A DNA stretch of 64,000 nucleotides, taken from NCBI RefSeq assembly GCF_003334305.1, contig NZ_QOWS01000017.1; one strand, written 5' to 3'. Made by a program: the position numbers and the translations under genes. This DNA comes from Escherichia coli. GTDB lineage: Bacteria > Pseudomonadota > Gammaproteobacteria > Enterobacterales > Enterobacteriaceae. Positions 1 to 15,279 of this stretch are shown one piece after another (the first letter of the stretch is position 1; the number at the start of each line of letters is the position of its first letter). The notes under the pieces were generated by a model. The model made no database searches and had not been told where the DNA came from. It saw only the letters and a list, made by a program, of their open reading frames with translations.

Positions 1-52
1 AGTTAATGCAACCGGCACGGAATGCAGTCATCTGTCACAGGGAGGAAAGCAA

Positions 53-373
53 ATGAAAACCCCCTTACCGCCCGTCTTACGCGCAGCCCTTTACCGTCGC
101 GCTGTCGCCTGTGCCTGGCTGACCGTGTGCGAACGTCAGCACCGCTACCCGCATCTCACCCTTGAATCACTGGAGGCGGCCATCGCCGCTGAGCTGGAAG
201 GCTTTTATCTGCGCCAGCACGGTGAGGAAAAAGGGCGTCAGATAGCCTGTGCCCTGCTGGAAGATTTAATGGAATCCGGCCCCCTGAAGGCCGCGCCGTC
301 GCTGTCCTTTCTCGGGCTGGTTGTGATGGATGAACTCTGTGCCCGTCACATAAAAGCGCCGGTACTGCACTGA
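53..373 (+). CDS. hypothetical protein, P4-like satellite early region (106 aa)
   Basis: ORF with GGAGG RBS a few nt upstream of ATG; co-directional with and 15 bp upstream of the alpha-type primase gene; no motif recognised. Confidence 0.5.
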
Positions 374-387
374 AGGAGAACAACACC

Positions 388-2721: not shown

Positions 2722-2728
2722 CCCACCT

Positions 2729-2754
2729 GACCGGCATCTGCCGGTCTTTTTTTA
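2729..2754 (+). terminator. rho-independent terminator after primase gene
   Basis: GACCGGC-atct-GCCGGTC hairpin followed by T7 run, 8 bp after the stop codon. Confidence 0.65.
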
Positions 2755-2770
2755 TCCCTGAATTCCCCGA

Positions 2771-3070
2771 AGGTGAACAATCCACTGTTCACCCTTCACC
2801 GTATATTCACCCGTTATCACACTGAAATTAAAAGAGAAAAACGAAAGGTGAACAGTGTGAACAATCAAATCAAAAAAAACTTTTTTCTTCCTGAGTGATT
2901 TCAGCACGGGAAATTAATCCCCTGCACAAGTCACACCGGCAGAATGCCGGAGGTGAAGAATCGAATGTTCACCCTTCACCCATTATTCACCACCTATCCA
3001 ACTGAAATAAAAGGAGAAAACAGAAAGGTGAACAGTGTGAACAGTTCTTTCGAAAAAAAATTTTTTTCTT
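2771..3070. repeat. crr-like replication region: two ~120-bp direct repeats carrying TGTTCACC/GGTGAACA octamers
   Basis: Units at 2771-2890 and 2951-3070 (period 180 bp) align nearly base for base; each has at least three copies of the P4 type I iteron octamer in both orientations and ends in an A8/T8 tract. Confidence 0.75.
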
Positions 3071-3184
3071 ATTTTTAATTGTGCGAAAAACAAGCGACAC
3101 ACGCAGTGTGTATAGATATGTGTATAGTTATATTTTTTGAATATTATAATGTATTACAAATCAATGTGTTAGCTTGTAATATTC

Positions 3185-3203
3185 ACTCCTATTATCGGCA
3201 CCA
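3185..3203 (+). other. att core copy (tRNA-Thr 3'-end-like, ACTCCTATTATCGGCACCA)
   Basis: 19-nt string matching the T-arm-to-CCA end of thrW as I recall it; no full tRNA upstream; second copy at 15262-15279. Confidence 0.6.
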
Positions 3204-3808
3204 TCAAGAAAATCAATAACTTAGCTTAACTTCTCTAAGAAATTGTATCTTCTGTTATCACTTACAAACGCCTATACGTTGTTATGGGCTTTGGTAGTGT
3301 AACACGTATGGGCGAGTAGTTCCCAGGCTCAACCTCGTAACAAGTTCCTTTGAAGCTGGAAGACGTGCCACCGTCTCTAAACCTTCTACCAAAACTCTTA
3401 GCAAGATGTTCCACACCTGGCGCGGTGTCCAATGATGCTACACGTCGTGAGACGTTGCAGAGGATAAACAGGCTAAATGATGGGAAGAGTTTTAAGTGCA
3501 ATAGTGGATTAAAGCCCACCTCTTCAAAACCTAACTTGATCGGGAAAGAATCAAGCTCTAGCACGGTTTCGTCCACCGGAGTACAACGGGTGCCTGATAA
3601 GAGAAGAACTGCTAAGACTTCATAGCTTTTGTGAAAAAGCCCTTTTTAGTGGATACGCCTACGGCGCTTATTTTTTGGTATAACCATCAAAGGCGCTTTA
3701 TGGCTCCTATTGTCTTGAAAATGTATCTTTACTTGTATTGTGTTTTATGCGTAGTCTCCCTGTGTAGTATGTAACTTGTTAATTTTCATATGAATACAGA
3801 GGCACACG

Positions 3809-3967
3809 ATGAAAAACATTGCAGCTATCAAACGGAATAACCGCAAGATTCACGCTCGTAAGTTCCTGTCTACGCCAGAAGGAAAAGCCTGGCTAGAGCG
3901 TAAACAGAGAGAAAACGAAGAAAGAAAACTCCTTAGTGAGTTGAAATGGCTTAGAGAGGATTTCTGA
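3809..3967 (+). CDS. small basic protein (52 aa), hypothetical
   Basis: ATG with AGAGG-like RBS; Lys/Arg-rich; below the size cut-off of the ORF track; translated by hand. Confidence 0.3.
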   Translation: MKNIAAIKRNNRKIHARKFLSTPEGKAWLERKQRENEERKLLSELKWLREDF

Positions 3968-4260
3968 AAATCTCCAGAACGCAACAGGACGCATTCTAAC
4001 GCTGTTTTCATTACTCGGTATAGGGATTATAGGTGATGTGTGTTTAATGCGTCTGTGAGCTTGTTTTGTGCCTTATTTTGCATTTTCATAATGCAGGAGA
4101 GAACACGGAAAGCCTTAAAATTAATTATTGGGGTATTTAAGGCTATTTTTAGGTTATTTAAGGGTATTAAACTTGATTTAATTGATTGAAATATAAACAG
4201 ATAATTATGTATCTTATTGATTTATAAGGTTATTTTTAAATAAAGGTAAATAAAAAATAA

Positions 4261-4300
4261 ATAGCCATAAATAGCTATAAATACATCTAAATACCTATAT
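4261..4300. repeat. four tandem 10-bp A-rich units (ATAGCCATAA / ATAGCTATAA / ATACATCTAA / ATACCTATAT)
   Basis: Read directly; 10-bp period equals the helical repeat, suggesting bent DNA or a phased binding site. Confidence 0.6.
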
Positions 4301-4713
4301 CCCTTCCCTTATGGCTAGATTGCGAGAAGTGCTTAACGCGATTTTCAGCGCCCCCCGATCTGGAAAATCCAGAATCCCCAAATATCAGCAAGGAATTTTC
4401 TTGCGTAATCAACATCGTTTTTACCTATTAAATCATTACACAGAAAGCCTTTCTGTAATGTCTCTCACTAAACTTTCACTAAACACGAGAATGATCGGTT
4501 TTATGTCGGATCAGATGCTAGAAATAGCACCACGTCTCACAAGGGCTGTAAGCGATGAAACCAGTGTTTATGCGGGTGCAGGTCAAAATATAGGCCAAAA
4601 TACATTTAACATAATAAACGTAATATGCACTAAGGAACACATAGAACGCCTTGAGTTGATGTATCAGGGGAAAAGTGGTGGATTTTTTACGTAGGAGCAC
4701 GAGAGGGCTTCTA

Positions 4714-4741
4714 TTGACTTTTGTATGCTATGAAATATAAT
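4714..4741 (+). promoter_or_regulatory. candidate sigma70 promoter (TTGACT-16-TATAAT)
   Basis: Consensus-like hexamers with 16-bp spacer; no convincing ORF downstream, so it may drive a non-coding transcript through the repeat region. Confidence 0.35.
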
Positions 4742-5088
4742 AGAAGGTTTTTTTATGTTGATAGTGATTGCACATTAAAGATTGAAAGCAAATTTAAACA
4801 TAAATTTTCAACACGTGAAAGAGAACTTGTTCGACAAATGATAAAACGTTTATTGAGCAACAATTTTGCAGTGATGCGCTATATGCCGAATTACACAAGG
4901 CTTTGCGAAAGTGATGTAAAAGTGAAGAAAGTAAGAATTGCAACTTTAAGCTACTTTTCATTGAATTTTTTAGTATGGAATTACACAGGAATAAGTTAGG
5001 GATATTCTATGATTTACACAGGGAATATAGGGGGATTATGGCACACACATAGAAAGACATTACACAAAGTGCTATGTGACAAATGGAT

Positions 5089-5300
5089 GTAACGAGAGGT
5101 TACATTCAGCTATCTGAAATGCTCTCTGTAAGAAAGTTGGTAGTAACGATATGTTACATAGACTAATTATTGAATGTAACGATATTACACATCGGTAGTA
5201 ACGATACGTTACATCGACTAATTATTGAATGTAACGATATTACACATCGGTAGTAACGATACGTTACATCGACAGATGATTGGATGTAACGAAAGGTTAC
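5089..5300. repeat. array of seven 15-bp palindromic sites GTAACGA(t/a)A(t/c)GTTAC (iteron/operator/centromere-like)
   Basis: Sites start at 5089, 5143, 5176, 5198, 5231, 5253 and 5286; spacings 54/33/22/33/22/33 bp are all near multiples of 11 bp; includes a 56-bp unit repeated in tandem. Confidence 0.8.
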
Positions 5301-6398
5301 ACAATAAGACTATATTATTTATAATACTAAATAAAACTATATTAGATTATTAATTAGATCATAATAATATTCTTTATATCTATATATATGATCTTTTGCC
5401 TTCCGGCGTTAGCTTCACTCCCTGGCAAGCAGCCTTACTCCGCTACCTTTCGGGCTACGTTGGCTGGCCCGTTCCGCTCACACCGAAAGCAAAGCGTTAC
5501 TTTCTTCGTGTAACTATCGTGGCGGTAACGCCCACGAAGAAATACTATTGCGCTGTGCGCAGAAGAGTAATCACCTAACCAATCATAGATTGCTTATGTG
5601 TTAACTCTCTCTACCTCTTAATTCCACTTCCTACATTTAATAACTCTGTTATTCTCTGTAGTTGTGTAATTACTCGAAGAGAGAGCGGCTAAAGCTCAAT
5701 TACACTCTGCTTTCCTCGTGTAAGTTCACTAAGCCTCAATACAATTTCACTTCCTACATTCTGTAGTCGTGTAATTGTTTTCGGTGGAAAAGCCAGAGGC
5801 GACACCGAAAGAGAATTCTGATCTTATTAATCTTATCTATCTTAGTTAATCTTCTTACTTTATCTACTTTATTATTAATAATAGCTTTATAAGCTCTGTG
5901 TAGCTCTCTGACGCAAGAAACAGCATTCAGGAAGGGAATCACCTTAGAAAAGGTGTTCTTTGCGTCATAATGTGTTTTATGAAGGATTCAGAGGTGTTTC
6001 ATAACAGGAATGTATAGAGGATATTTTAATTAATTAAAAATAAGGGGTCTAAATGCTTCTCTAACAACATTAAGCAGGGTAGGGAATGGAAACGCATTGC
6101 CTACATATAATAAGCTCACTACAGGGCTTTACAGAGCGTTTTATAAAGTGACTCTCTGTTTTATATTTACCATTACCTTTTCATATACCTAACAAATACA
6201 AAATAAGCCCCTTCAATAAGCCTCTGGCGAGCGAAACAGCCATTAGATAAGGGAATGTATTGCTTTTATCAAAATCTCGTCAGAATGCGATTGAGAGTGT
6301 TTTAGCGGATAATGAAGAATAGCACTACATAGAAGAGCACGAATTGTTAAGCAAAATCATAACATACTGAAAAAGATCAGTTTTTTTGTGAAAAGGTA

Positions 6399-6427
6399 TT
6401 GACAAACGTCTCTTTCTGTGCAATAAT
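6399..6427 (+). promoter_or_regulatory. candidate sigma70 promoter (TTGACA-17-AATAAT) for the cargo operon
   Basis: Consensus -35 and near-consensus -10; about 125 nt upstream of the first RBS-preceded ORF, with a hairpin-rich leader. Confidence 0.5.
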
Positions 6428-6554
6428 AGGTATTAGAGGGGACAGGAATAGATTCTTATCCTCTAAATAATTAAACCAATGCACCGCACTTTGAAGCCCA
6501 AGAGGCTTGCAAGGTGTTTTTTCTTTTAACCAAATCGAATAAGGAGGCTAATTA

Positions 6555-6731
6555 ATGAAATATTTCACTCCACAGGATGTAGTAGAAGCCTGGAAACGTG
6601 GTGAGATCAACCGCTTTAAAGTAAGGATGTATAGAAACACCGCTCGCCGTTGTGGTTATCCAGAGCGTGAAAAATGTTTTGACGATGCACTGAAAATTAT
6701 TGATGAACTGCGTAAAGCTGAGAAAGAATAA
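6555..6731 (+). CDS. hypothetical small protein (58 aa)
   Basis: AAGGAGG RBS 6 nt upstream of ATG; first gene after the promoter; translated by hand. Confidence 0.5.
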   Translation: MKYFTPQDVVEAWKRGEINRFKVRMYRNTARRCGYPEREKCFDDALKIIDELRKAEKE

Positions 6732-6753
6732 TAGACAAGAGAAGGAGAAAACT

Positions 6754-6921
6754 ATGAGCGAAACTAAGAAACCAATTCCGCGCACTTACCTTCACGTTGA
6801 CCCTGAAATCTTCAAGGTTTTATTTGCTGAAGCCAAGAAAAGGCAAATTATGGTCAGTGATTTGATGTTAGAAATCATTACTGAAGCAGCAGAGAACATC
6901 AAACAAAAAAAGGGTAAGTGA
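6754..6921 (+). CDS. ribbon-helix-helix-like DNA-binding protein (55 aa)
   Basis: GAAGGAG RBS; N-terminal beta-strand-like segment (RTYLHV) followed by two short helices, an Arc/CopG-type pattern; inferred from sequence pattern only. Confidence 0.5.
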   Translation: MSETKKPIPRTYLHVDPEIFKVLFAEAKKRQIMVSDLMLEIITEAAENIKQKKGK

Positions 6922-6974
6922 TCCTCATTCACTTTAGTAGCGCATTAAGCGTGATTTATAAGGAGATGATTCTA

Positions 6975-7718
6975 ATGTCTAAAATTAAATTGATTCGTGA
7001 AAAATACCAGTATGTTGATAAACAAACAGGAGAAATTAAAGACCGAACTTTGAATATACCGCATTACTTTTGTGAGATTGAATTTATCTACTCCTCAAGT
7101 GTTGATGGTGGAAAAGTTAAGTTTAGTGCAGAAATGCAAAAATTATATTGCTATGTTTCAGATTGGGAGAAATCAGGGGGGATATGTTTTGAAACACAAA
7201 CGAAGTTAAGTAAAGTTTGTGGCTGTAGCCGTAAGACAGTTAATGAACTGATTGGTCTTATGATTAAAATCGGTCTTTTAGAAGAGGTCGGAGAACGAAT
7301 TCCAAAACGTCCTTTAAAATTACGTGCGCTACCTCTCACAGATGCACATATTACTCCCCCAGGAGAATCATCACTCTCTGATCTTTCTGAGGCAGAAGAA
7401 GCACAGGAACAACCTAAAGGCCATAAACAGCCTTCTTTTGATGTTCTTGATGATTGGGATGCGCCTTTACCGTGGGAGACGGAAGAAACACCTGTTTCAT
7501 CAAGTGAAAAGGTAGCTAATGATAATGAGGAGGATGTATTAGAGAATTTTGCCTCTCTTATCATCCAGGAGAAACACACAAGAACAGGAGGAGCATCATT
7601 TATTGAGTTTGCAAATTCACTAGCTTATAGATACGGGCTAAAACGACCAAATGGTATTGAGGCATATTTTTCTAAGAATTACCCAAATGTATATGATGAA
7701 TTTGATATTCCCTTTTAA
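6975..7718 (+). CDS. winged-helix DNA-binding protein with acidic linker (247 aa), possible replication initiator or regulator
   Basis: AAGGAG RBS; helix-turn-helix-like segment LSKVCGCSRKTVNELIGLMIKIGLLEE; Asp/Glu-rich middle; stop overlaps the next RBS. Confidence 0.55.
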   Translation: MSKIKLIREKYQYVDKQTGEIKDRTLNIPHYFCEIEFIYSSSVDGGKVKFSAEMQKLYCYVSDWEKSGGICFETQTKLSKVCGCSRKTVNELIGLMIKIGLLEEVGERIPKRPLKLRALPLTDAHITPPGESSLSDLSEAEEAQEQPKGHKQPSFDVLDDWDAPLPWETEETPVSSSEKVANDNEEDVLENFASLIIQEKHTRTGGASFIEFANSLAYRYGLKRPNGIEAYFSKNYPNVYDEFDIPF

Positions 7719-7748
7719 TAAGGAGGACTATGATTCAATATTTAGTAA

Positions 7749-8009
7749 AAAAATCAAGTAGACAGAATTCAGTGTAATGACACAGGAAAACGCATCTACG
7801 AAACACTTGCTTACCTCTATAAAGGAAAGCCAACACCGCTAAAATATAGCGATGTGTTACATCGAGCAGGGTGCTCTGAAGCTGGTTTAAAATTCTGGCT
7901 GAAACAGCTATCAAATTTCGGTGTTATTGAAATGAAAGAGCTGTCTTTTTCTACATTCAATCTCAAAAGATTAGATAAAGAAATAGAATTCATCTATTCC
8001 ACTCTCTAA
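7749..8009 (+). CDS. second winged-helix-like ORF lacking a canonical start (frameshift/slippage or pseudogene candidate)
   Basis: Open frame encoding ...YSDVLHRAGCSEAGLKFWLKQLSNFGVIEM...; an AGGAGG-ATG at 7730 opens a 15-codon ORF in another frame that crosses an A7 run (7747-7753) directly before this frame opens. Confidence 0.3.
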   Translation, partial: KNQVDRIQCNDTGKRIYETLAYLYKGKPTPLKYSDVLHRAGCSEAGLKFWLKQLSNFGVIEMKELSFSTFNLKRLDKEIEFIYSTL

Positions 8010-8141
8010 AATCTCTCTATGTAATTAAAATATAAAAGGAAAACATTATTATGATAGTAGCTATGTATTGGTTATTGTTCTTTCTCACGTTAGAAGCATA
8101 CTTTGGGGTGTTTTCCTTTAAAAGAAAAGGAAAAGTAAATA

Positions 8142-8558
8142 ATGGCAAAAAGAAAAAACAACGTTGTTAAGAAAATCGGTGATTCAGCTTCTCTTCTAAG
8201 TAAACCTAAACCTAAATCTATTCTAAGACGTAAAGACTTTAAAGAGCTAGTTACGCTCACCAAGCAAAATAGCGCCCCTGGCGAATGGAAAACAGAGATC
8301 ATAGAACATTCTCCCTCTGTGCCTTGTGGAGATGAATTTAACGCCTTGCAAGAAATCTTATCTTCAACACCTGGCGTATTCTGGAAACCTAGAAAAAGAA
8401 AAGAGTATATCGTTGATAGCTCTGATTTACGCAAATACCAGATTTTAGGATTTGAAGATTATAACCACTACGTCGGTTATCTCGCCACCAATGGCCTAAA
8501 TAATTTAGTTCCTGAATTCCAAATTTTAGATAATGCTGATCACTATGGAGACTTTTAA
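8142..8558 (+). CDS. hypothetical protein (138 aa), basic N-terminus
   Basis: ATG preceded by AAAGGAAAAG; no motif recognised. Confidence 0.5.
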   Translation: MAKRKNNVVKKIGDSASLLSKPKPKSILRRKDFKELVTLTKQNSAPGEWKTEIIEHSPSVPCGDEFNALQEILSSTPGVFWKPRKRKEYIVDSSDLRKYQILGFEDYNHYVGYLATNGLNNLVPEFQILDNADHYGDF

Positions 8559-8559
8559 T

Positions 8560-8898
8560 ATGAACAAAAACACGTATGACACAATTTATTCACTAATTAA
8601 TTATTATGAGGATGATTACCTCCTGCCTTTAAACCGCGCTGAACTTGAAGCATACAAAGAAAACACGCCAGGGGCGCTAAATGAGGCGTTTAAACACTGG
8701 GATTTAGCTGTGAATGCCTTTGAGCACCTTTCTAAAAGAGTAGAGATGCTCTGTAAGCGTGAAAACGCATACCTGACAGCCGATCAGATATGGGAGCTAT
8801 CAAACTGGATAGAAGATATTGAATCTGATGTTCGCTATGTAGGGGATGGCCTGGTTGAATTAGCTCAACGCTTAGGCGCTACTATCACAGAAGAATAA
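8560..8898 (+). CDS. hypothetical acidic protein (112 aa)
   Basis: ATG 8560 with GGAG 7 nt upstream, 1 nt after the previous stop; an in-frame upstream ATG at 8533 would overlap the previous gene. Confidence 0.5.
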   Translation: MNKNTYDTIYSLINYYEDDYLLPLNRAELEAYKENTPGALNEAFKHWDLAVNAFEHLSKRVEMLCKRENAYLTADQIWELSNWIEDIESDVRYVGDGLVELAQRLGATITEE

Positions 8899-8927
8899 AA
8901 AAAGCAACAAAAAAGTTGTAAAATATC

Positions 8928-8956
8928 TTGACATTCCATCTATTGTATGTTAATAT
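8928..8956 (+). promoter_or_regulatory. candidate sigma70 promoter (TTGACA-17-TAATAT)
   Basis: Consensus -35; located in a 350-bp gap inside the operon. Confidence 0.45.
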
Positions 8957-9093
8957 AATTATATAGGGGTGATTATTTTTCCTTTATTGGTTCGATATTA
9001 AAAATTCTTCCTGTCATTAAAGGGGAGTAAAATCTCCGCTCCCCGCTTCTCCTCCTTAAGTAAATACTGTGTCATTATACCTCTTTTTTCCTT

Positions 9094-9125
9094 TGTTATG
9101 CATACATCTTGGAGTATGCATAACA
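9094..9125. promoter_or_regulatory. 12-bp perfect inverted repeat TGTTATGCATAC-N8-GTATGCATAACA (operator or RNA hairpin)
   Basis: Read directly; lies between the 8928 promoter and the next gene. Confidence 0.6.
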
Positions 9126-9165
9126 TAGGGTAATTACATAGGTATGAGTTAATAAAAGGCGGCTC

Positions 9166-9189
9166 TAAATGCTGCCTTTTATTTTGCCC
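9166..9189 (+). terminator. weak intrinsic terminator or attenuator
   Basis: AGGCGGC-tctaaat-GCTGCCT stem with one G-U pair, followed by TTTTATTTT. Confidence 0.4.
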
Positions 9190-9247
9190 GTTATGCAACT
9201 TAAAAGTTGTATTTCTTACTTTAAAAAAGGTAACAAGGTTTATATAA

Positions 9248-9460
9248 ATGTTGTTTTTAAACGATAAAGAGCAAATCATCAAGTATAAAGATGAAATGCT
9301 GAAAATTAATCCACAAATTACCGAAATGGTAGCTAAATACGCTGGGTGTTCTGTCGAGGAAGTAGAAAGATGTGTTGAAAAATATTTTTCTCCTTCTACT
9401 CCGTCTACACCTTCCCTTAATGAATTAATCAAATTAAAAGCTAAGGAGATTACTAAATGA
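9248..9460 (+). CDS. hypothetical protein (70 aa)
   Basis: ATG with AAGG upstream; stop overlaps the start of the next gene (ATGA). Confidence 0.5.
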   Translation: MLFLNDKEQIIKYKDEMLKINPQITEMVAKYAGCSVEEVERCVEKYFSPSTPSTPSLNELIKLKAKEITK

Positions 9461-9819
9461 TTATTGATTTAGACACTCTGTTTCCAGTTAGAAAGACTTT
9501 CACAGATATTGTAAGTTATTGTACTGATCCGTTTGCCTCTGTAGAAAGCAAGGTTTTTGCTTCTCTTCCTGCTGATGTTGAGTGCGGCGACTTGATCACC
9601 AGTACTGGCGCTAAATATGAATCAGGAGATGATATCTATGTTGTTATGAGTGAATTTGTAACGGCTGGAGAAAACAAGCCTGTAGATGTGCTACGTAGTA
9701 ATGCTGGTCTTGTCTGCATCAAAGCTGATGCGCTGAATGCTGTAAGTGAAGCAGCAAAAACAGCATTAATTAAAAAAGGCTTCCAGCTTGAAGGGTTCCA
9801 TTCTGTTTTCACTTCTTAA
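9457..9819 (+). CDS. hypothetical protein (120 aa)
   Basis: AAGGAG RBS; translationally coupled to the upstream ORF. Confidence 0.55.
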   Translation: MIIDLDTLFPVRKTFTDIVSYCTDPFASVESKVFASLPADVECGDLITSTGAKYESGDDIYVVMSEFVTAGENKPVDVLRSNAGLVCIKADALNAVSEAAKTALIKKGFQLEGFHSVFTS

Positions 9820-9837
9820 TAAAAGGAATAATAATAA

Positions 9838-10869
9838 ATGATTCTAGGTAATGATTACGTTGATTTAGCTCCGCTTTTCCAGGCACACAGCACTAGAAAC
9901 TTTCTGCTCTCTACCCTCGACTTCACTGATCCGGTGGGCGTTAGTTCTCATAAAGTAGCTGTTTCTCAGCTTGTCGAAAGCAACGAATCTCTGTTCAACA
10001 AAGAAACCTCTCGTTTCTCTTCTGAACACAATGTTACTAAGCGTGAACAAGGTAAAGAATGGCTGATTGAAATCCCGTATTTTCTTCGTGAAGATGTGAT
10101 CCGTCCTTCTGATGTTCAAGGCAAGCGTAAGCCTGGCACTGATTTTCAGGAAACACTCACTGATATCTATGCGGAATATATCGCTAAACACCACGTAGCG
10201 TATCAGCGTACAAAAGAGAGCGTGTTGGCTGCATCTCTGTTTAGCGGTAAAACTTACACGCCTAAAACTGATGATGTTCTTATCGAGTGGGGCAAGCTGT
10301 TTAACGTGGCACCTATGAAAGCCACCTTGAACGCTTCCAGCACTGACACAATGACCGTTTTCAAGCAATTTGACCAGCTTGCTACGGATATGATTGCTAA
10401 GGCACAAAACCAGGCTGCAACCATTGAGCGTGTTGTTGTGTTCTGTAAACCTGCGGCATTCAACGCTATTCGTTACAGTGTTGGTATGGTCAATGCTTTC
10501 CAATATGCAAGCCCTGTAGACGATGCCAACGTGGTGTTTAATGTGCGTTCCCTGCTACCAGGTGTAACTACTTTCACCATTCCAGGAACTAACATTGACC
10601 TGATCAAAGTGACTGATCCGCTACACCTTGCACATATGGCTTCTGATGCGGTTGCTGTGCCTAAATTCGCTAAGGGGGCAGGTGTTTACCAATCTATCTA
10701 TGGGGCAGCTTCCAGCACCTTTGAACTGATCAATGCCGCTCCTGCTGAGGTGTATAGCTATAGCTATGAATCTTCTTCTCGTGGTGATGCTGTTAACGTT
10801 GTTACAGAGAATAGCCAGATGGTGGTAAACCACGGCGTTGGTTTCTCCGTTCAAATCACTGTTAAATAA
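9838..10869 (+). CDS. hypothetical protein (343 aa), no motif recognised
   Basis: Long ORF in AT-rich DNA with AAGGA RBS; followed by a strong terminator. Confidence 0.65.
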   Translation: MILGNDYVDLAPLFQAHSTRNFLLSTLDFTDPVGVSSHKVAVSQLVESNESLFNKETSRFSSEHNVTKREQGKEWLIEIPYFLREDVIRPSDVQGKRKPGTDFQETLTDIYAEYIAKHHVAYQRTKESVLAASLFSGKTYTPKTDDVLIEWGKLFNVAPMKATLNASSTDTMTVFKQFDQLATDMIAKAQNQAATIERVVVFCKPAAFNAIRYSVGMVNAFQYASPVDDANVVFNVRSLLPGVTTFTIPGTNIDLIKVTDPLHLAHMASDAVAVPKFAKGAGVYQSIYGAASSTFELINAAPAEVYSYSYESSSRGDAVNVVTENSQMVVNHGVGFSVQITVK

Positions 10870-10887
10870 TATTTTAACGTGTAATAG

Positions 10888-10925
10888 AGGCGTGGCGTGA
10901 ATAACACGCTTCGCCTTTTTTTATT
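10888..10925 (+). terminator. rho-independent terminator
   Basis: Nested hairpin AGGCG-tg-GCGTG-aataa-CACGC-tt-CGCCT followed by a T-rich run. Confidence 0.65.
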
Positions 10926-10955
10926 TATTTTTAAATTTTGAGAGGTGATTAAAAT

Positions 10956-11159
10956 ATGGAAGTGATTCTGAAATCAAAAAATGGTGTACACGTTTATTTA
11001 GATGCTAATGATTCAAGAGGCTTGTTAAATCTGAAATATCTATGTTCTCTCTTGGATGTTCCATATGAAGGCGTAAAAGCCCGAATGTTCAGATTAAACG
11101 AGAGTATTGATCAAGCTCTACACCATTTCTTAAGCAAAGAAGGTGGTAAAAATGATTAA
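10956..11159 (+). CDS. hypothetical protein (67 aa)
   Basis: GAGAGGTGA RBS; 15 bp upstream of the 612-aa gene. Confidence 0.45.
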   Translation: MEVILKSKNGVHVYLDANDSRGLLNLKYLCSLLDVPYEGVKARMFRLNESIDQALHHFLSKEGGKND

Positions 11160-11173
11160 TAAGGGGATTTTAA

Positions 11174-13012
11174 ATGTTAGAAATTAACACTTCTAAAATT
11201 AAGAACACAGTAACATTTAGTGTAGATAAAGACAGCTTGAAAAAAGCGAAAGACTCTATTACAGGCTTAAAGGAATTCACAGAAAACATCAAGCCAGCTA
11301 AATTAAGGTTTGATAGTGTCACTAAAGGCTATAAGAAAGCACAAAGCGAAGTAGACAAGATTGCTCAACAGAAAGCTAAAACAGAAAAGCAGAATCAAAG
11401 AGCACAAGCTGCCGCAGCAAGAGCACAGGCAAGGCAACAGACACAAATAGCAGCACGTAAAGAGAAAGCAGAATTAAAGCTCCTCGATGTGTCAAGCTCT
11501 ATCAGTGCAATGCACCGCCTCTCTGTAGCGGAACAATACAAAGCTATTGCACAGGCTAGAGAGATAGCAAAACAATATGAGCAAGGGGCTATCTCGCTTG
11601 CACGTATGAATAGTCAGATGAAACGCCTACAACAGCAACAACGTAAGATTAATGGCAACAGAAAAGCTCAATTAGCCCCCGTTAAGGGAGGAGGATCAGG
11701 GAATTCCGCCACGATGGGTGCTCTGTTATTTGGAGGCGCTACAGCGGCTGCTGGCGTGATGGCTGTTAGTAAAGCGTCGGAGTTTGTTAGTAACAGTTTC
11801 GCTAACGCAGAGACACAAGGTGAGCTAATTCAACGTGCAAGGCTTGGCGGTGTAGACGTTAACCAGATGTACAACATTACAGAATGGGCCTATAGAAACG
11901 GCGTTGACTCTATGATGGGTGATCAAGGGGCTAGGAAATACCTGGATCAGATGAAAGATGTTAGGGAACGTGCCGCAAAATCCTATAGTGAAGCTGAATA
12001 TGTAGTCGATAAAAAAACTGGTAAAGGCGGCGAATGGAAAGGCGGTGATAACGCTATTAATGAACTTCTAAACATCGGTGTTATTAACAAGAGCGACCTT
12101 AAAAAATTTGCTGATAATCCAGCCGGATTAATTTCTAAGGCTGTTAATGGAATGATGAAAAAAGGGTTTTCAGACTCCCAAATTGGACAACGTTTAGAAG
12201 ACCTGGGTGATGATTTGATGCTTACATCAAAATATTGGCAACGTTCCGTTAAAGATGTACAAACAAGCATCGAGCAGCAAAAAGCCTCTGGAAAATGGCT
12301 AACAGAAACACAGCAAGATTCTATTGTTAAATTCAGAGAACTAAACAGACAGCTTTCACAGCTTTCTGATGCAAGACAAGTAGCATTTGTAGACGGCTTT
12401 ATGAAATCTCTCGATCCAAAAGTAACGGAAGAGTTTATGAAAAACCTTTCTAATCTCACTCCGTATTTTACAAAGCTGGGAGAAGCTACAGGAAGTCTCT
12501 TTGAAGCTATTATGAAGATTGTAAACTGGTTTAATCGTAATGATGATAAGACAGATGCTATTCAGAAAAATTTAGGTGATGCACCGCCATTAAGCAATGA
12601 AGGAATGAAACAGAATCTTTCTAATCTCGTTCCTGATCAATATAAAGGCGCTGGCACCGGAACAACTAAGCCAGATAACAGCAATTCCCTGTTTAACACT
12701 ATTAAGGGATTGCTTTTCGATGATAAGTCTTCTTCTGTGTCAGATGTAAAAATGTCAGTCAGCGAAGCACCGATAACCAATCTCAAACAGGGCGCTTTAA
12801 ATAATCTTGCAATGACAACTCCGGCTTATAATTTATCTCCTGTGTTTAATCTGAATCCTACATTTGAAGTGGTAACAGAGGTTCCTCTTACTATTAATTC
12901 TGACACATCAAGATTAAGCGATTATGTGGATTTTACAGCGAGATCAAGTCGGGATAGCTTCTTGAAATCATTAACATTAACCAGCTTATCAGGACAATCT
13001 AACGGCGGGTAA
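11174..13012 (+). CDS. large coiled-coil protein with central Gly-rich hydrophobic segment (612 aa); tape-measure-like or membrane-interacting, function unknown
   Basis: AAGGGG RBS; N-terminal approx. 150 aa rich in Q/A/R/K/E; segment GGGSGNSATMGALLFGGATAAAGVMAV; no NTP-binding or catalytic motif seen. Confidence 0.7.
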   Translation: MLEINTSKIKNTVTFSVDKDSLKKAKDSITGLKEFTENIKPAKLRFDSVTKGYKKAQSEVDKIAQQKAKTEKQNQRAQAAAARAQARQQTQIAARKEKAELKLLDVSSSISAMHRLSVAEQYKAIAQAREIAKQYEQGAISLARMNSQMKRLQQQQRKINGNRKAQLAPVKGGGSGNSATMGALLFGGATAAAGVMAVSKASEFVSNSFANAETQGELIQRARLGGVDVNQMYNITEWAYRNGVDSMMGDQGARKYLDQMKDVRERAAKSYSEAEYVVDKKTGKGGEWKGGDNAINELLNIGVINKSDLKKFADNPAGLISKAVNGMMKKGFSDSQIGQRLEDLGDDLMLTSKYWQRSVKDVQTSIEQQKASGKWLTETQQDSIVKFRELNRQLSQLSDARQVAFVDGFMKSLDPKVTEEFMKNLSNLTPYFTKLGEATGSLFEAIMKIVNWFNRNDDKTDAIQKNLGDAPPLSNEGMKQNLSNLVPDQYKGAGTGTTKPDNSNSLFNTIKGLLFDDKSSSVSDVKMSVSEAPITNLKQGALNNLAMTTPAYNLSPVFNLNPTFEVVTEVPLTINSDTSRLSDYVDFTARSSRDSFLKSLTLTSLSGQSNGG

Positions 13013-13046
13013 TTCCCGCCATAACATTACAAGGAAAATTATTATT

Positions 13047-13760
13047 ATGGCGACCGCCGGGATTTTAACCATACGTGCAGCAAATACTCCAGAACAACAC
13101 GTTCAGGCTGTTTACAAAGCAGAACAAGATATAAATTCTACAAAAAACGAAAATAGCAAAGCTAATAAAACAAAAGGAGAGAACGGATTTGCTATTGTTA
13201 CCAGTGGCTTGGCATCTTCTGGCAATGACGTTTATGAAAATTATATGGCCCTGGCCTTTGACAGTGTAGACGATGTGAACGTGAGACGTTCGGCAGATGT
13301 CACAAGCTACCCCGTAGAAAATGGTGCTACTGTGTCTGATCACGTTCAAATTAAAAACAATAAGTTTTCTCTTAAAGGAAGGATCACTGAAACACCGATT
13401 AAAAGCGATCCTGGCTTGTTAAAGAGTGCAGGGGTGAACGGGAACAGAAGATCATTAGCCATAGACTACTTGAATCAGATTATGGACAGTAGACAGCCTT
13501 TTCTTCTTGTTACAGAAAATAAAACTTTTGAGAACGTTGTTTTAACAGGCATCGAATACACAGAAGAGGCAAGCGAATCCCTGGTATTTGATCTTAGCTT
13601 TGAGCAGATCAGATTAGTTTCTTATGGCACTGTATCCACTATTGCACTTAAAACACAACCATCTAAGAACATCGGGGCGAATATGAAAAAACGTGTTAAC
13701 ACTGAAAAATCAAGTAGTGAAGGTGAAGACACTATTACTCCTGCCTTTAAGCAGAAATAG
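13047..13760 (+). CDS. hypothetical protein (237 aa)
   Basis: AAGGA RBS; last gene of the + strand operon, convergent with the integrase. Confidence 0.6.
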   Translation: MATAGILTIRAANTPEQHVQAVYKAEQDINSTKNENSKANKTKGENGFAIVTSGLASSGNDVYENYMALAFDSVDDVNVRRSADVTSYPVENGATVSDHVQIKNNKFSLKGRITETPIKSDPGLLKSAGVNGNRRSLAIDYLNQIMDSRQPFLLVTENKTFENVVLTGIEYTEEASESLVFDLSFEQIRLVSYGTVSTIALKTQPSKNIGANMKKRVNTEKSSSEGEDTITPAFKQK

Positions 13761-13803
13761 CCGTAAACGCCTCTAAAACGCTCTGTAACGATGTAATTAT
13801 AAA

Positions 13804-13840
13804 AGAGGCTGCCAATCTATGTTGAAGCCTCTTTATTGTG
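13804..13840. terminator. bidirectional terminator between convergent operon and integrase
   Basis: AGAGGCT-N15-AGCCTCT hairpin flanked by T-rich runs on both strands. Confidence 0.5.
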
Positions 13841-13841
13841 T

Positions 13842-15176
13842 TTATGGCGTTGTTTTACGCCTTAAATTTGATTTTTTATTGATTGATAAGCCTTTCTCTA
13901 TTTCAGGGTAGCGTAGAAGCTCAATATAGTTTTTAAGCTCTACTGGAGAAGCTGCATTCTTGCTATATGTGCGGAATGTCTCTGTATTGCCGCGTGTATG
14001 GCCCAGGAGAAGGGCGATCCTGTCTTCTGGAATTTGATTTCGATCAAGAAGCTGTGCTACTCCGTGTCTCAGAGAATGAAACACTTTCCTTTCTGTTCCC
14101 TTTTCCCCTAAAGCCTTTCGTTTAGCTCTTGTAAATCTCTGCGTGTGCCACGTGGAACGTTTACCATCAGCACGCTCTGTAATGCTGGCGTGATAGAACA
14201 AAAAGCCATTATGAGGCTTTTCACGCAGCGACAACACCAACGGAGTGATAAGGCTATGTACAGGCACAACACGTGCCGCAGCTTTCGTTTTTCCCTGTGT
14301 GATTTCAAAACACAGCACACCTTCGATCTCTTTCACATCGTCTATTGTGAGACTTGCTATCTCATTGATCCGCATACCTGTATATAAACCGATAAGACAC
14401 AAAGCCATCATTTCTTTGTTTTCTGCTGAATTACCGGAAAATACTTGCAACACCTGCAATAGCTCTTTGTTAGAAAATGCCTCGTAGCTCTCTCTACTTT
14501 GTGCCACATCAAGCCTATGCCCTCGCCAGGGGGAGAGCGCCCTTTCTGGCGCATCGTGGTAACGTGATGAAGCTAACTCCCATAGCTGGGCTATTGGGCT
14601 GATATAATTTGCAATTGATTGTTGTGAAAGAGTTTTTTGCATGTGTTCTATCCAGCCTGTAACAGTGGTGCGGCTCACATCTTGCAATGCAATATCAGGC
14701 TTTTTACGGTAGGAGAGAAACATCTCTACCGCTTTTCTTGCCTTAGCTAAAGTGGCTGGCTTCTTCTTCGTGCTGTTAATTGTCAGGTAGATTTCAAGAA
14801 TTTTAAGCAATGACGGACACGAAGACGCTGTATCTTGCATTCTGGTAGCTGTTTTGGCGTATTTAGCCTTACTGCGTAACAGCTCCAGCGTGTTCTCTAT
14901 TGTGCTGTTTACAGGGGCGACACTCTCCCGTAGGCAATGGTATTCATCTGCAATCTGATCACGCTTTCTACGTGCAACACGAAGATTATTTGTGTGTAGA
15001 CTTCTGACAAACGTCCTTTTTCCTTCAAAAAAGGGCTGCATATACACAGGCAGCGTGATCCTTAAATAGTAGTTACCGTAAGAATCACAGATTAAGTATT
15101 GGTTAGGCTTGTATCTCATAAAATCTCCGGCTAAAGTGTCGGAGCGTTTGTAATGTGAAAATTGATTGTAACGCAT
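13842..15176 (-). CDS. tyrosine-type site-specific integrase
   Basis: Box I GMRINE, box II HSLRHG, LLGH, and a C-terminal tyrosine in TFRTYS; ATG at 15176 (a TTG at 15206 gives the 454-aa track ORF); sits directly inside the right att copy. Confidence 0.85.
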   Translation of the reverse strand: MRYNQFSHYKRSDTLAGDFMRYKPNQYLICDSYGNYYLRITLPVYMQPFFEGKRTFVRSLHTNNLRVARRKRDQIADEYHCLRESVAPVNSTIENTLELLRSKAKYAKTATRMQDTASSCPSLLKILEIYLTINSTKKKPATLAKARKAVEMFLSYRKKPDIALQDVSRTTVTGWIEHMQKTLSQQSIANYISPIAQLWELASSRYHDAPERALSPWRGHRLDVAQSRESYEAFSNKELLQVLQVFSGNSAENKEMMALCLIGLYTGMRINEIASLTIDDVKEIEGVLCFEITQGKTKAAARVVPVHSLITPLVLSLREKPHNGFLFYHASITERADGKRSTWHTQRFTRAKRKALGEKGTERKVFHSLRHGVAQLLDRNQIPEDRIALLLGHTRGNTETFRTYSKNAASPVELKNYIELLRYPEIEKGLSINKKSNLRRKTTP

Positions 15177-15218: not shown

Positions 15219-15279
15219 GGTCGTAGGTGATGGCATTAACACGAGATTAATCGAGTGTTTTACTCCTATTATCGCACCA
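15219..15279 (+). pseudogene. tRNA-Thr 3'-half remnant (ptwF-like) containing the right att core copy
   Basis: GGTCGTAGGT, then a 33-nt unrelated insert, then ACTCCTATTATCG-CACCA; not a foldable tRNA. Confidence 0.55.

What the first reader, a model, noticed from the sequence alone, without database searches (positions are those of the whole stretch)
9838..10869. 343-aa ORFan ending at the strongest terminator of the operon
This is the largest soluble-looking protein of the cargo and is followed by a nested hairpin plus T-run, suggesting it is a major end product of the upstream transcript, as major structural proteins or abundant effectors often are. I do not recognise it; naming it a capsid or tail protein would be guesswork.
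Basis: inference. Interest (0 to 1): 0.35.

Follow-up and report, generated by a model that had tools for sequence, protein, structure and literature searches.

The report
Capsid protein of a phage satellite
The "unknown" 343-residue protein is the shell (major capsid) protein of a 12-kb hitch-hiking element in E. coli that appears to parasitise large phi92-like viruses; both the protein's annotation and this exact element were already published in 2023, though never tested at the bench.

Summary
The ORF (9838-10869, +, 343 aa) and the hairpin plus T-run after it (10886-10922) are real. The hairpin is the strongest terminator-like site on that strand of the island. The protein is not an ORFan. 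It matches Pfam Phage_cap_E end to end, its model hits only HK97-fold capsid proteins, and RefSeq already calls it "major capsid protein". It is under purifying selection (dN/dS 0.08-0.14).

It lies in a 12.1-kb island at tRNA-Thr (thrW; att repeats 3185-3203 and 15262-15279). The island carries an integrase, a Rep-like protein with iterons, a likely decoration protein, this capsid protein, a tape-measure homologue and a baseplate-type protein. It has no portal, protease or terminase.

The tail genes are homologues of phi92-like (Justusliebigvirus) genes. The virulent phage Inny carries a nuclease whose DNA-binding domain is 97.6% nucleotide-identical to the island's Rep gene.

Barth, Dunham and Seed (2023) described this family as putative satellites, and their Table S6 lists this very locus.

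Possibly new:
- a 40-mer in the island matches the boundary of phi92's terminal repeat, so it is a candidate packaging signal;
- the nuclease's second DNA-binding domain also has a satellite cognate.

The parts
3185..3203 (+). attL, a copy of the 3' end of tRNA-Thr (thrW): ACTCCTATTATCGGCACCA
   Evidence: It forms a direct repeat with 15262-15279. It is identical to the 3' end of thrW in strain C6.
4320..4359 (-). A 40-mer, 39/40 identical to phi92 positions 318-357. That stretch spans the inner boundary of phi92's left direct terminal repeat (1-343). Candidate packaging or end-cleavage signal.
   Evidence: It is conserved in 13 other E. coli island loci with one mismatch to the window copy; 12 of them carry the 40-mer 40/40 identical to phi92, and L026 differs at one position.
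5084..5303 (+). Iteron array (GTAACGnnnnGTTAC units, 55-nt period), followed by an AT-rich stretch to about 5400. Probable replication origin.
   Evidence: Its function is inferred.
6754..6921 (+). 55-aa ORF upstream of Rep. It lies inside the 97.6%-identical block shared with phage Inny (inny_185).
6975..7718 (+). Rep-like protein of 247 aa with an HTH_36 winged-helix domain. Its C-terminus ends ...FDIPF.
   Evidence: Pfam HTH_36. PHROG replication-initiator families. 88% aa identity over 145 aa to the N-terminus of phage Inny gene 184.
8142..8898 (+). Two conserved small genes of unknown function (138 aa and 112 aa).
   Evidence: The 138-aa gene is syntenic in most related loci and the 112-aa gene in about two thirds. 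Neither has a Pfam or PHROG match.
8928..9185 (+). A conserved sigma-70-like promoter (TTGACA, 17 nt, TAATAT, with TG), about 230 nt of structured untranslated leader, then a hairpin plus T-run ahead of the capsid genes.
9248..9460 (+). 70-aa conserved gene of unknown function.
9457..9819 (+). 120-aa protein, probably the capsid decoration protein.
   Evidence: The AF2 model (pLDDT 65) best matches the non-MCP ~122-146-residue capsid chains (which I take to be the decoration proteins) of the Sf14, Bas63 and phiTE capsids: prob 0.89-1.0, TM 0.44-0.51. dN/dS is 0.06-0.17. Barth et al. 2023 also label it Dec.
9838..10869 (+). Major capsid protein, 343 aa, HK97 fold, Pfam Phage_cap_E. This is the finding.
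10886..10922 (+). Intrinsic-terminator-like hairpin plus T7 run directly after the capsid gene.
10956..11159 (+). 67-aa conserved protein of unknown function.
   Evidence: A homologue sits at the same position in most related loci and in the distant locus L013. No Pfam match.
11174..13012 (+). Tape-measure-protein homologue, 612 aa.
   Evidence: phrog_16051 at 4.4e-54. It is 26% identical to phi92 gp134 overall, with 56% over the first 66 aa. tblastn hits are confined to 134 phage records; the listed top hits are ~130-151 kb phi92-like/Phapecoctavirus phages.
13047..13760 (+). Baseplate or tail-tube-initiator homologue (Dit_like), 237 aa.
   Evidence: 61% identical to phi92 gp135. Pfam Dit_like is recorded on its orthologues.
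13842..15119 (-). Tyrosine integrase.
   Evidence: phrog_1. RefSeq annotation.
15262..15279 (+). attR: ACTCCTATTATCGCACCA.

Best explanation
The ORF encodes the HK97-fold major capsid protein of a 12.1-kb putative phage satellite integrated at thrW. The satellite's helpers, or targets, are virulent phi92-like myophages of about 148 kb (Justusliebigvirus).

Proposed mechanism. On infection the island excises by its integrase. It then replicates from its iterons with its own Rep. The capsid operon is expressed from a conserved promoter and leader. The capsid protein and its cognate decoration protein build a small shell sized for about 12 kb. The helper supplies the portal, scaffold, protease and terminase. 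The helper terminase is recruited through a copied 40-nt piece of the helper's terminal-repeat boundary. The satellite's own tape-measure and baseplate homologues enter helper-made tails. The terminator after the capsid gene keeps capsid transcripts in excess over the downstream tail genes, as in phi92.

What is shown: capsid-protein identity and fold, gene content, att sites, homology to phi92 tail genes, recent DNA exchange with Justusliebigvirus phages, and purifying selection.

What is inferred: induction by the phage, formation of small capsids, the packaging signal, and the role of the terminator.

The confidence of 0.6 is for the whole mechanism. That the protein is an HK97-fold major capsid protein I put at about 0.97, and that the island belongs to the published putative-satellite family at about 0.95.
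For: Protein identity:
- Pfam Phage_cap_E matches full length at 4.4e-14.
- phrog_29 'major head protein' matches.
- The Pakpunavirus P7-1 capsid protein (PDB 9zbi) matches at 1e-9.
- The top Foldseek hits of the AF2 model are the capsid proteins of ICP1, phiTE, Bas63 and Sf14, at E 3e-8 to 2e-5.
- The protein is 20% identical to phi92 gp124, pairwise E 1e-7.

A working capsid pair:
- The upstream 120-aa protein folds like the decoration proteins of the same phages.
- Capsid, decoration and tape-measure genes all have dN/dS near 0.1.

Element:
- att repeats lie 12.1 kb apart.
- The core gene order (capsid, then tape-measure homologue, then a reverse-strand integrase, usually with the decoration gene upstream) holds in nearly all of the 39 related loci. 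These come from E. coli, Klebsiella and Sodalis contigs plus unnamed IMG/VR and Logan contigs, and they sit at several integration sites.
- None of these loci has a phi92-type terminase, portal, scaffold, sheath or tube gene.

Link to the helper:
- The baseplate-type protein is 61% identical to phi92 gp135, and the tape-measure N-terminus is 56% identical to gp134.
- Tape-measure variants from three islands each hit 134 phage records with the same organism breakdown, whose listed hits are Justusliebigvirus/Phapecoctavirus-type phages.
- Window 6742-7367 is 97.6% nucleotide-identical to phage Inny.
- There it forms the DNA-binding domain of an HTH_36 + HTH_36 + MUG113/T5orf172 nuclease. This is the architecture of ICP1 Odn, which cuts the origin of its PLE satellite (PMC8263062).
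- The island's 40-mer equals the phi92 terminal-repeat boundary.

Published record: Barth et al. 2023 describe these islands as putative satellites and list CP028767.1 1011648:1037040.
Against: - There are no experimental data. Excision, replication, small capsids and transduction have never been shown, and I found no follow-up paper.
- The capsid protein is only 20% identical to the helper's. Compatibility with the helper's portal and scaffold is therefore not evident.
- No scaffold was recognised in the island.
- The capsid model is mediocre (mean pLDDT 58; N-arm and E-loop below 50), and TM-scores are only 0.35-0.45.
- The IMG/VR loci are longer contigs in which the island sits with extra flanking DNA, so they give no evidence of packaging.
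- Why a satellite would need its own tape measure is unexplained.
Confidence: 0.6

Rival explanations
1. Size-redirecting capsomer, as with SaPIbov5 Ccm. The protein does not build the whole shell. It co-assembles with the helper's capsid protein, for example at the pentamers, and forces small capsids.
For: It is a distant homologue of the helper capsid protein (20% identity). Ccm is 24% identical to its helper's capsid protein and fills the pentamers of T=4 shells (PMC8569155). The island has no scaffold, portal or protease of its own.
Against: The island keeps a cognate decoration protein under purifying selection. That fits a complete shell made of the satellite's own subunits better than 60 pentamer subunits. 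The capsid gene recombines between island lineages as a unit of the island, not with phage genes.
Confidence: 0.2
2. Assembly poison or decoy. The capsid, tape-measure and baseplate homologues act mainly to spoil the phage's head and tail assembly. The result is abortive defence of the clone without efficient transfer of the island.
For: Satellites commonly interfere with their helpers. Tail-assembly interference is a known defence strategy (PMC11364771). The conserved ends of the tape-measure homologue would let it dock on phage tail parts. The phage nuclease implies that the island harms the phage.
Against: PADLOC finds no defence family. The element occurs in several enterobacterial genera and at several integration sites, so it does move. 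The terminal-repeat mimic and the decoration protein are hard to explain without packaging. Interference and transfer do not exclude each other.
Confidence: 0.12
3. Decaying prophage remnant. The gene is a leftover with no present function.
For: The site (thrW / paoD) is the same as that of cryptic prophage CP4-6 in K-12. About 3.3 kb of the island has almost no annotated genes.
Against: dN/dS is near 0.1. Full-length relatives are all 341-349 aa, down to 29% identity. The same minimal gene set recurs across genera. 378 of 5426 complete E. coli genomes carry a full-length copy. Sequence was exchanged recently with virulent phages.
Confidence: 0.03

Closest known systems
[quoted passage not shown]
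   Same: It is the same element family. It has att sites at a tRNA, an integrase, Dec, MCP, TMP, a baseplate gene and a RepA_N-type Rep matched by a phage odn-like nuclease. It lacks a terminase, protease, alpA, and a Pri-Rep. This exact locus is in their Table S6.
   Different: Nothing differs in kind. What this work adds:
- the 40-mer shared with the phi92 terminal-repeat boundary;
- a satellite cognate for the nuclease's second DNA-binding domain;
- direct homology of the tail genes to phi92 gp134 and gp135;
- relatives in Klebsiella, Citrobacter, Enterobacter, Cronobacter, Sodalis and Serratia;
- selection estimates.
Capsid-forming PICIs (cfPICI)
   Same: A chromosomal satellite that encodes its own HK97-fold capsid protein and takes other virion parts from a helper.
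   Different: cfPICIs carry a complete head and packaging module (portal, protease, connectors, terminase) plus alpA and pri-rep, and they steal only tails. This island has the capsid and decoration genes only, and adds tail genes.
SaPIbov5 Ccm (PMC8569155)
   Same: A satellite-encoded distant homologue of the helper's capsid protein: 24% identity there, 20% here.
   Different: Ccm fills only the pentamers and cannot form shells alone. It has no cognate decoration protein. Its helper is a temperate siphophage of S. aureus.
Vibrio cholerae PLE and ICP1 Odn (PMC8263062)
   Same: A satellite of a virulent myophage. The phage counters with a chimeric T5orf172-type nuclease that carries the satellite Rep's DNA-binding domain. 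Rep and origin modules are swapped among satellites.
   Different: PLE uses the helper's capsid protein with its own external scaffold (PDB 8g1r title) and, as far as I recall, has no capsid gene of its own. The hosts and phage families differ.
EPIP satellites of Mycolicibacterium (bioRxiv 10.64898/2025.12.02.691453)
   Same: Satellites reported to encode both a major capsid protein and a tape-measure protein.
   Different: EPIPs also encode a small terminase, adaptor, stopper and scaffold. They use a serine integrase and a temperate helper.
Capsid proteins phi92 gp124 and Pakpunavirus P7-1 (PDB 9zbi)
   Same: Same Pfam family and fold, similar length (333-344 aa). In phi92 a decoration gene sits upstream and a terminator downstream.
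   Different: Only 20-23% identity. The island's capsid lineage is old and is not a recent copy of a known phage gene.

Membership tests
HK97-fold major capsid protein, Pfam Phage_cap_E (PF03864) | Full-length match to the family profile | tested here: met
   i-Evalue 4.4e-14, query 24-342, model 19-329 of 329. PF03864 is precomputed on nearly all listed homologues (48 of 50).
HK97-fold major capsid protein, Pfam Phage_cap_E (PF03864) | HK97 fold (spine helix, A- and P-domains, N-arm, E-loop) | tested here: met
   All top 31 Foldseek PDB hits of the AF2 model are phage capsid proteins (one of them a phage-related protein crystal structure), with encapsulins following from rank 32; best E is 3e-8. 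The A- and P-domains and the spine helix are modelled at pLDDT 70-90. The N-arm and E-loop are below 50.
HK97-fold major capsid protein, Pfam Phage_cap_E (PF03864) | Assembles into icosahedral shells that hold DNA | not testable with these tools
   This needs particle purification, mass spectrometry and EM.
Barth et al. 2023 putative satellites of Justusliebigvirus phages | Flanking att repeats with a tyrosine integrase next to a tRNA | tested here: met
Barth et al. 2023 putative satellites of Justusliebigvirus phages | Carries Dec, MCP, TMP and a baseplate component; lacks terminase, protease and most tail genes | tested here: met
Barth et al. 2023 putative satellites of Justusliebigvirus phages | The Rep N-terminal domain is shared with a phage T5orf172 nuclease | tested here: met
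   97.6% nucleotide identity over 625 bp with phage Inny. Domain architecture.
Barth et al. 2023 putative satellites of Justusliebigvirus phages | Listed by the authors | tested here: met
   CP028767.1 1011648:1037040 is in the supplementary table.
Barth et al. 2023 putative satellites of Justusliebigvirus phages | Helper-dependent induction and transfer (what makes it a satellite in fact) | not testable with these tools
   No experiment exists in the literature I could search.
cfPICI | Own portal, prohead protease, head-tail connectors and terminase, plus alpA and pri-rep | tested here: not met
   No unassigned ORF is long enough to be a portal or large terminase. No PHROG, Pfam or tblastn hit to such genes.
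SaPIbov5 Ccm-type capsid redirection | Satellite-encoded distant homologue of the helper's capsid protein | tested here: met
   20% identity to phi92 gp124, pairwise E 1e-7.
SaPIbov5 Ccm-type capsid redirection | Occupies the pentamers of a mixed shell and cannot assemble alone | not testable with these tools
   This needs cryo-EM.
P4-like satellite | alpha primase, sid, psu and delta genes inside the element | tested here: not met
   The alpha-like primase (388-2721) lies upstream of attL in a separate element with 62% GC.

The most novel reading that the evidence does not exclude
The island uses a capsid-hijack mode not yet demonstrated for any satellite. It supplies only the shell (capsid plus decoration protein) and two tail-core proteins. 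It takes the portal, scaffold, protease, terminase and the rest of the tail from a virulent phage with direct terminal repeats. It gets packaged because it carries a 40-nt copy of the helper's terminal-repeat boundary.
Probability: 0.4. Interest if true: 0.7.

Novelty: already known. Interest (0 to 1): 0.3.

Why it matters
The gene itself is routine: RefSeq already annotates it as a capsid protein.

The element it belongs to is more interesting. It would be an E. coli counterpart of the Vibrio PLE/ICP1 system, a satellite locked in an arms race with a virulent phage. It occurs in about 7% of complete E. coli genomes (393 of 5426). It brings its own shell and tape measure, which is an unusual combination.

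That picture was published in silico in 2023. The remaining value is therefore experimental.

The 40-mer shared with the phi92 terminal-repeat boundary gives a concrete, mutable candidate for the packaging signal. The matched Rep and nuclease domains predict which phage should be blocked by which island. Because phi92-like phages are candidates for phage therapy, islands of this kind could affect host range.

Tried and rejected
- NCBIfam gave nothing for any island protein except weak integrase matches.
- PADLOC found no defence family, only a coiled-coil chance match.
- Rfam found nothing credible in the island or in the phage region that holds the 40-mer.
- Pfam found nothing for the 138-, 121- and 67-aa proteins.
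- BLASTP of the 120-aa protein against phi92 gp123, and of the 67-aa protein against gp133, was negative. The decoration call therefore rests on fold only.
- The 138-aa protein is not the gp126-like adaptor seen in locus L013.
- K-12 CP4-6 shares only the integrase end of the site, not the cargo.
- The IMG/VR scan returned mostly proviruses inside longer contigs, so it does not show encapsidation.
- A nucleotide search with island L011 found no terminal-repeat-like match, but that contig may lack the relevant region.
- Literature searches on satellites plus phi92, Stephanstirmvirinae or thrW found nothing. The search on origin-directed nucleases then led to Barth et al..
- I first considered this a possibly undescribed satellite family. 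I dropped that once the paper and its table were read.

Full report
**Observation.** The ORF at 9838-10869 (+) is present exactly as described and encodes 343 aa. It is followed by a hairpin at 10886-10918 that runs into seven T's at 10916-10922. The hairpin has MFE -20.6 kcal/mol and z = -4.7, and none of 200 shuffles folds as well. I scanned the + strand from 6400 to 13900 for hairpins followed by T-runs. This site ranked first at -19.7 kcal/mol. The next were a site at about 9157-9185 (-17.8) and one near 6500 (-16.2). So "strongest terminator of the operon" holds. Two parts of the description do not hold. The protein is not an ORFan, and it is not the largest protein of the island, because the 612-aa ORF at 11174-13012 is larger.

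**What the protein is.**
- Pfam Phage_cap_E (PF03864) matches over model positions 19-329 of 329 at 4.4e-14.
- phrog_29 "major head protein" matches at 8.7e-14.
- The closest solved structure by sequence is the capsid protein of Pakpunavirus P7-1 (9zbi, 1e-9).
- An AlphaFold2 model built on 22 family members is only moderate: mean pLDDT 58. The core is at 70-90, and the N-arm and E-loop are below 50.
- Even so, all its top Foldseek hits in the PDB are HK97-fold capsid proteins of virulent myophages: ICP1, phiTE, Bas63 and Sf14, at E 3e-8 to 2e-5.
- The window comes from E. coli A7 (NZ_CP028767.1), where RefSeq already names the gene "major capsid protein".
- The family is small. Only 70 representatives reach E ≤ 1e-3 among 1.84 billion proteins.
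- Members are named in E. coli, Klebsiella, Citrobacter, Enterobacter, Cronobacter, Sodalis and Serratia.
- dN/dS is 0.08-0.14.
- 393 of 5426 complete E. coli genomes carry the gene, 378 of them at full length, and always on the chromosome.

**The element around it.**
- GC content drops from about 60% to 35-43% between roughly 2700 and 15400.
- Direct repeats of the 3' end of tRNA-Thr lie at 3185-3203 and 15262-15279, which bounds a 12.1-kb island.
- A P4-like element lies in tandem upstream of attL.
- The island encodes, in order:
  - a tyrosine integrase (13842-15119, - strand);
  - an HTH_36 Rep-like protein (6975-7718);
  - an iteron array followed by an AT-rich stretch (5084-5400);
  - several small conserved genes;
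  - a 120-aa protein just upstream of the capsid gene;
  - the capsid gene;
  - a 67-aa protein;
  - a 612-aa tape-measure homologue (phrog_16051, 4.4e-54);
  - a 237-aa Dit_like baseplate-type protein.
- The model of the 120-aa protein (pLDDT 65) best matches the non-MCP ~122-146-residue capsid chains, which I take to be the decoration proteins, of the Sf14, Bas63 and phiTE capsids (prob 0.89-1.0). These are the same phages whose capsid proteins best match the island's.
- No portal, protease, scaffold, terminase, sheath or tube gene is present, and no unassigned ORF is long enough to be a portal or large terminase.
- The core order (capsid, then tape measure, then a reverse-strand integrase, usually with the decoration gene upstream) recurs in nearly all of the 39 related loci. 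These loci sit at several integration sites and in several genera. The order holds even where capsid identity falls to 29-37%.

**Link to phi92-like phages.**
- The tail genes are homologues of consecutive phi92 genes.
  - The 237-aa protein is 61% identical to gp135.
  - The tape-measure homologue is 26% identical to gp134 overall, with 56% over the first 66 residues and a conserved C-terminus.
- Tape-measure variants from three island lineages each hit 134 phage records with the same organism breakdown. The listed hits are Justusliebigvirus/Phapecoctavirus-type phages of about 130-153 kb.
- phi92 has the gene order decoration gp123, capsid gp124..., gp133, tape measure gp134, gp135. It also has a hairpin plus T-run directly after its capsid gene.
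- The island capsid protein is only 20% identical to gp124. It is therefore an old lineage, not a recent copy.
- One distant island (L013) also carries a homologue of phi92 gp126, a PhiTE-type adaptor, at 33% identity.

**Evidence of conflict with these phages.**
- Window 6742-7367 is 97.6% nucleotide-identical to the virulent Justusliebigvirus Inny.
- In Inny this stretch encodes a small ORF and the first ~130 residues of gene 184.
- Gene 184 has the domains HTH_36, HTH_36 and a C-terminal MUG113/T5orf172 (GIY-YIG-type) nuclease.
- That is the architecture of ICP1 Odn, a phage nuclease that carries the DNA-binding domain of its satellite's RepA and cuts the satellite origin (PMC8263062).

[quoted passage not shown] They described the matching E. 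coli islands as putative satellites encoding Dec, MCP, TMP, a baseplate component and Int, and lacking terminase, protease, alpA and Pri-Rep. They catalogued 224 of them. Their supplementary table lists CP028767.1 1011648:1037040, which is this locus. I found no later experimental paper. Both the capsid call and the family are therefore already in the literature, but only as bioinformatic inference.

**Possibly new details.**
1. Window 4320-4359 is 39/40 identical to phi92 positions 318-357.
   - Most other E. coli islands are 40/40 identical.
   - phi92 annotates its left direct terminal repeat as 1-343. The shared 40-mer therefore straddles the inner boundary of the repeat, which is a plausible site for end formation during packaging.
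   - It occurs in 62 phage records, in one copy outside the terminal repeats (most records list a single place). The listed records are about 145-150 kb and mostly named Justusliebigvirus or phi92-like; four are labelled Campylobacter phages.
   - The Barth paper does not mention terminal repeats or satellite packaging signals.
   - A copied packaging signal would explain why the island needs no terminase.
2. The paper states that the second RepA_N domain of each phage nuclease has no detectable satellite cognate.
   - I find it 75% identical in protein to the Rep of another E. coli island lineage, L011/L012.
   - At the nucleotide level it is 90.8% identical over 261 bp.
3. The capsid gene of strain A7 is a mosaic.
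   - Codons ~155-290 match the L026 lineage, and the two ends match the L002 lineage.
   - dS is elevated in the central tract, but dN/dS stays at about 0.14, which indicates recombination rather than diversifying selection.
4. A conserved strong promoter is followed by about 230 nt of structured leader and a terminator (8928-9185), just ahead of the capsid genes. The layout recalls antitermination-controlled late operons.
5. Most island Rep proteins examined (five of seven) end in ...DIPF...SIPF...EEPF or ...DCPF; the Klebsiella one does not. From memory, this resembles the C-terminal tip of E. coli SSB.

**Mechanism and confidence.**
- That the ORF is an HK97-fold major capsid protein is close to certain.
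- That it belongs to the published putative-satellite family is established by the table entry.
- I favour the view that the capsid and decoration proteins build a satellite-specific small shell on helper parts. The reason is that a cognate decoration protein under purifying selection makes most sense with a complete shell of the satellite's own subunits.
- A Ccm-like mixed-shell role remains open, and so does a mainly poisoning role.
- The terminator most simply sets a high ratio of capsid transcripts to downstream tail-gene transcripts, as the same layout in phi92 suggests. This is inference.

Noticed in passing
window 4320-4359 (- strand relative to phi92): A 40-mer is 39/40 identical to phi92 318-357, which spans the inner boundary of phi92's 343-bp left direct terminal repeat. 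Most other E. coli islands are 40/40. It occurs in 62 phi92-like phage records, in one copy outside the terminal repeats. It is a candidate packaging or end-cleavage signal, and the 2023 paper does not mention it.
   Followed up: partly
L011:2001-2261; phage Muut 81629-81889; phage Inny 119807-120067: The second HTH_36 domain of the phage odn-like nucleases is 90.8% nucleotide-identical (75% in protein) to the Rep of the L011/L012 island lineage. Barth et al. state that this second domain has no detectable satellite cognate.
   Followed up: partly
window 8928-9185: A strong sigma-70-like promoter, conserved across genera, is followed by a ~230-nt structured untranslated leader (z = -5.5) that ends in a hairpin plus T-run just upstream of the capsid genes. 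No Rfam family matches. The layout resembles an antitermination-controlled late operon.
   Followed up: partly
window 5084-5400: At least five GTAACGnnnnGTTAC-type iterons sit in a 55-nt periodic array, followed by an AT-rich stretch. This is probably the island's origin and the likely target of the phage nuclease.
   Followed up: no
window 7695-7718 and Rep C-termini in L002, L009, L011, L013, L006: These island Rep proteins end in ...FDIPF, ...SIPF, ...EEPF or ...DCPF; the Klebsiella Rep (L003) does not. From memory, this resembles the acidic C-terminal tip of E. coli SSB and may recruit host replication proteins.
   Followed up: no
window 10300-10700 (capsid codons ~155-290): The central third of the capsid gene is only 67-82% identical to otherwise ~95%-identical islands (L002, L009, L017, L022), but it matches the L026 lineage. 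dN/dS stays near 0.14, so this is a recombinant allele and not diversifying selection.
   Followed up: yes
window 11174-11300: The first 41 residues of the tape-measure homologue are about 78% identical to phi92 gp134, although the proteins are 26% identical overall. The C-terminal end is also conserved. This suggests the protein docks on helper tail parts at both ends.
   Followed up: partly
L013:6563-7066: A distant member of the island family also encodes a 167-aa head-tail adaptor (Pfam Phage_Adaptor_PhiTE) that is 33% identical to phi92 gp126. The window's island has no such gene.
   Followed up: partly
window 1-3184: A separate P4-like element (alpha-type primase-helicase at 388-2721, 62% GC) lies in tandem upstream and shares the thrW att repeat. 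Two different satellites therefore occupy one tRNA site.
   Followed up: no
window 3204-6550: About 3.3 kb of the island has almost no annotated genes, although it contains ORFs of 127 and 92 aa (4311-4694 and 4721-4999). The first of these overlaps the 40-mer. This region is variable between islands, with a Dam methylase in the Klebsiella islands and resolvase genes in the E. coli loci L009/L010.
   Followed up: no
window 6754-6921; L011:1768-1934: The small ORF upstream of Rep is also shared with phages at 95-98% nucleotide identity (Inny gene 185; phages PaulScherrer and VEcB). It therefore travels together with the Rep or nuclease DNA-binding module.
   Followed up: no
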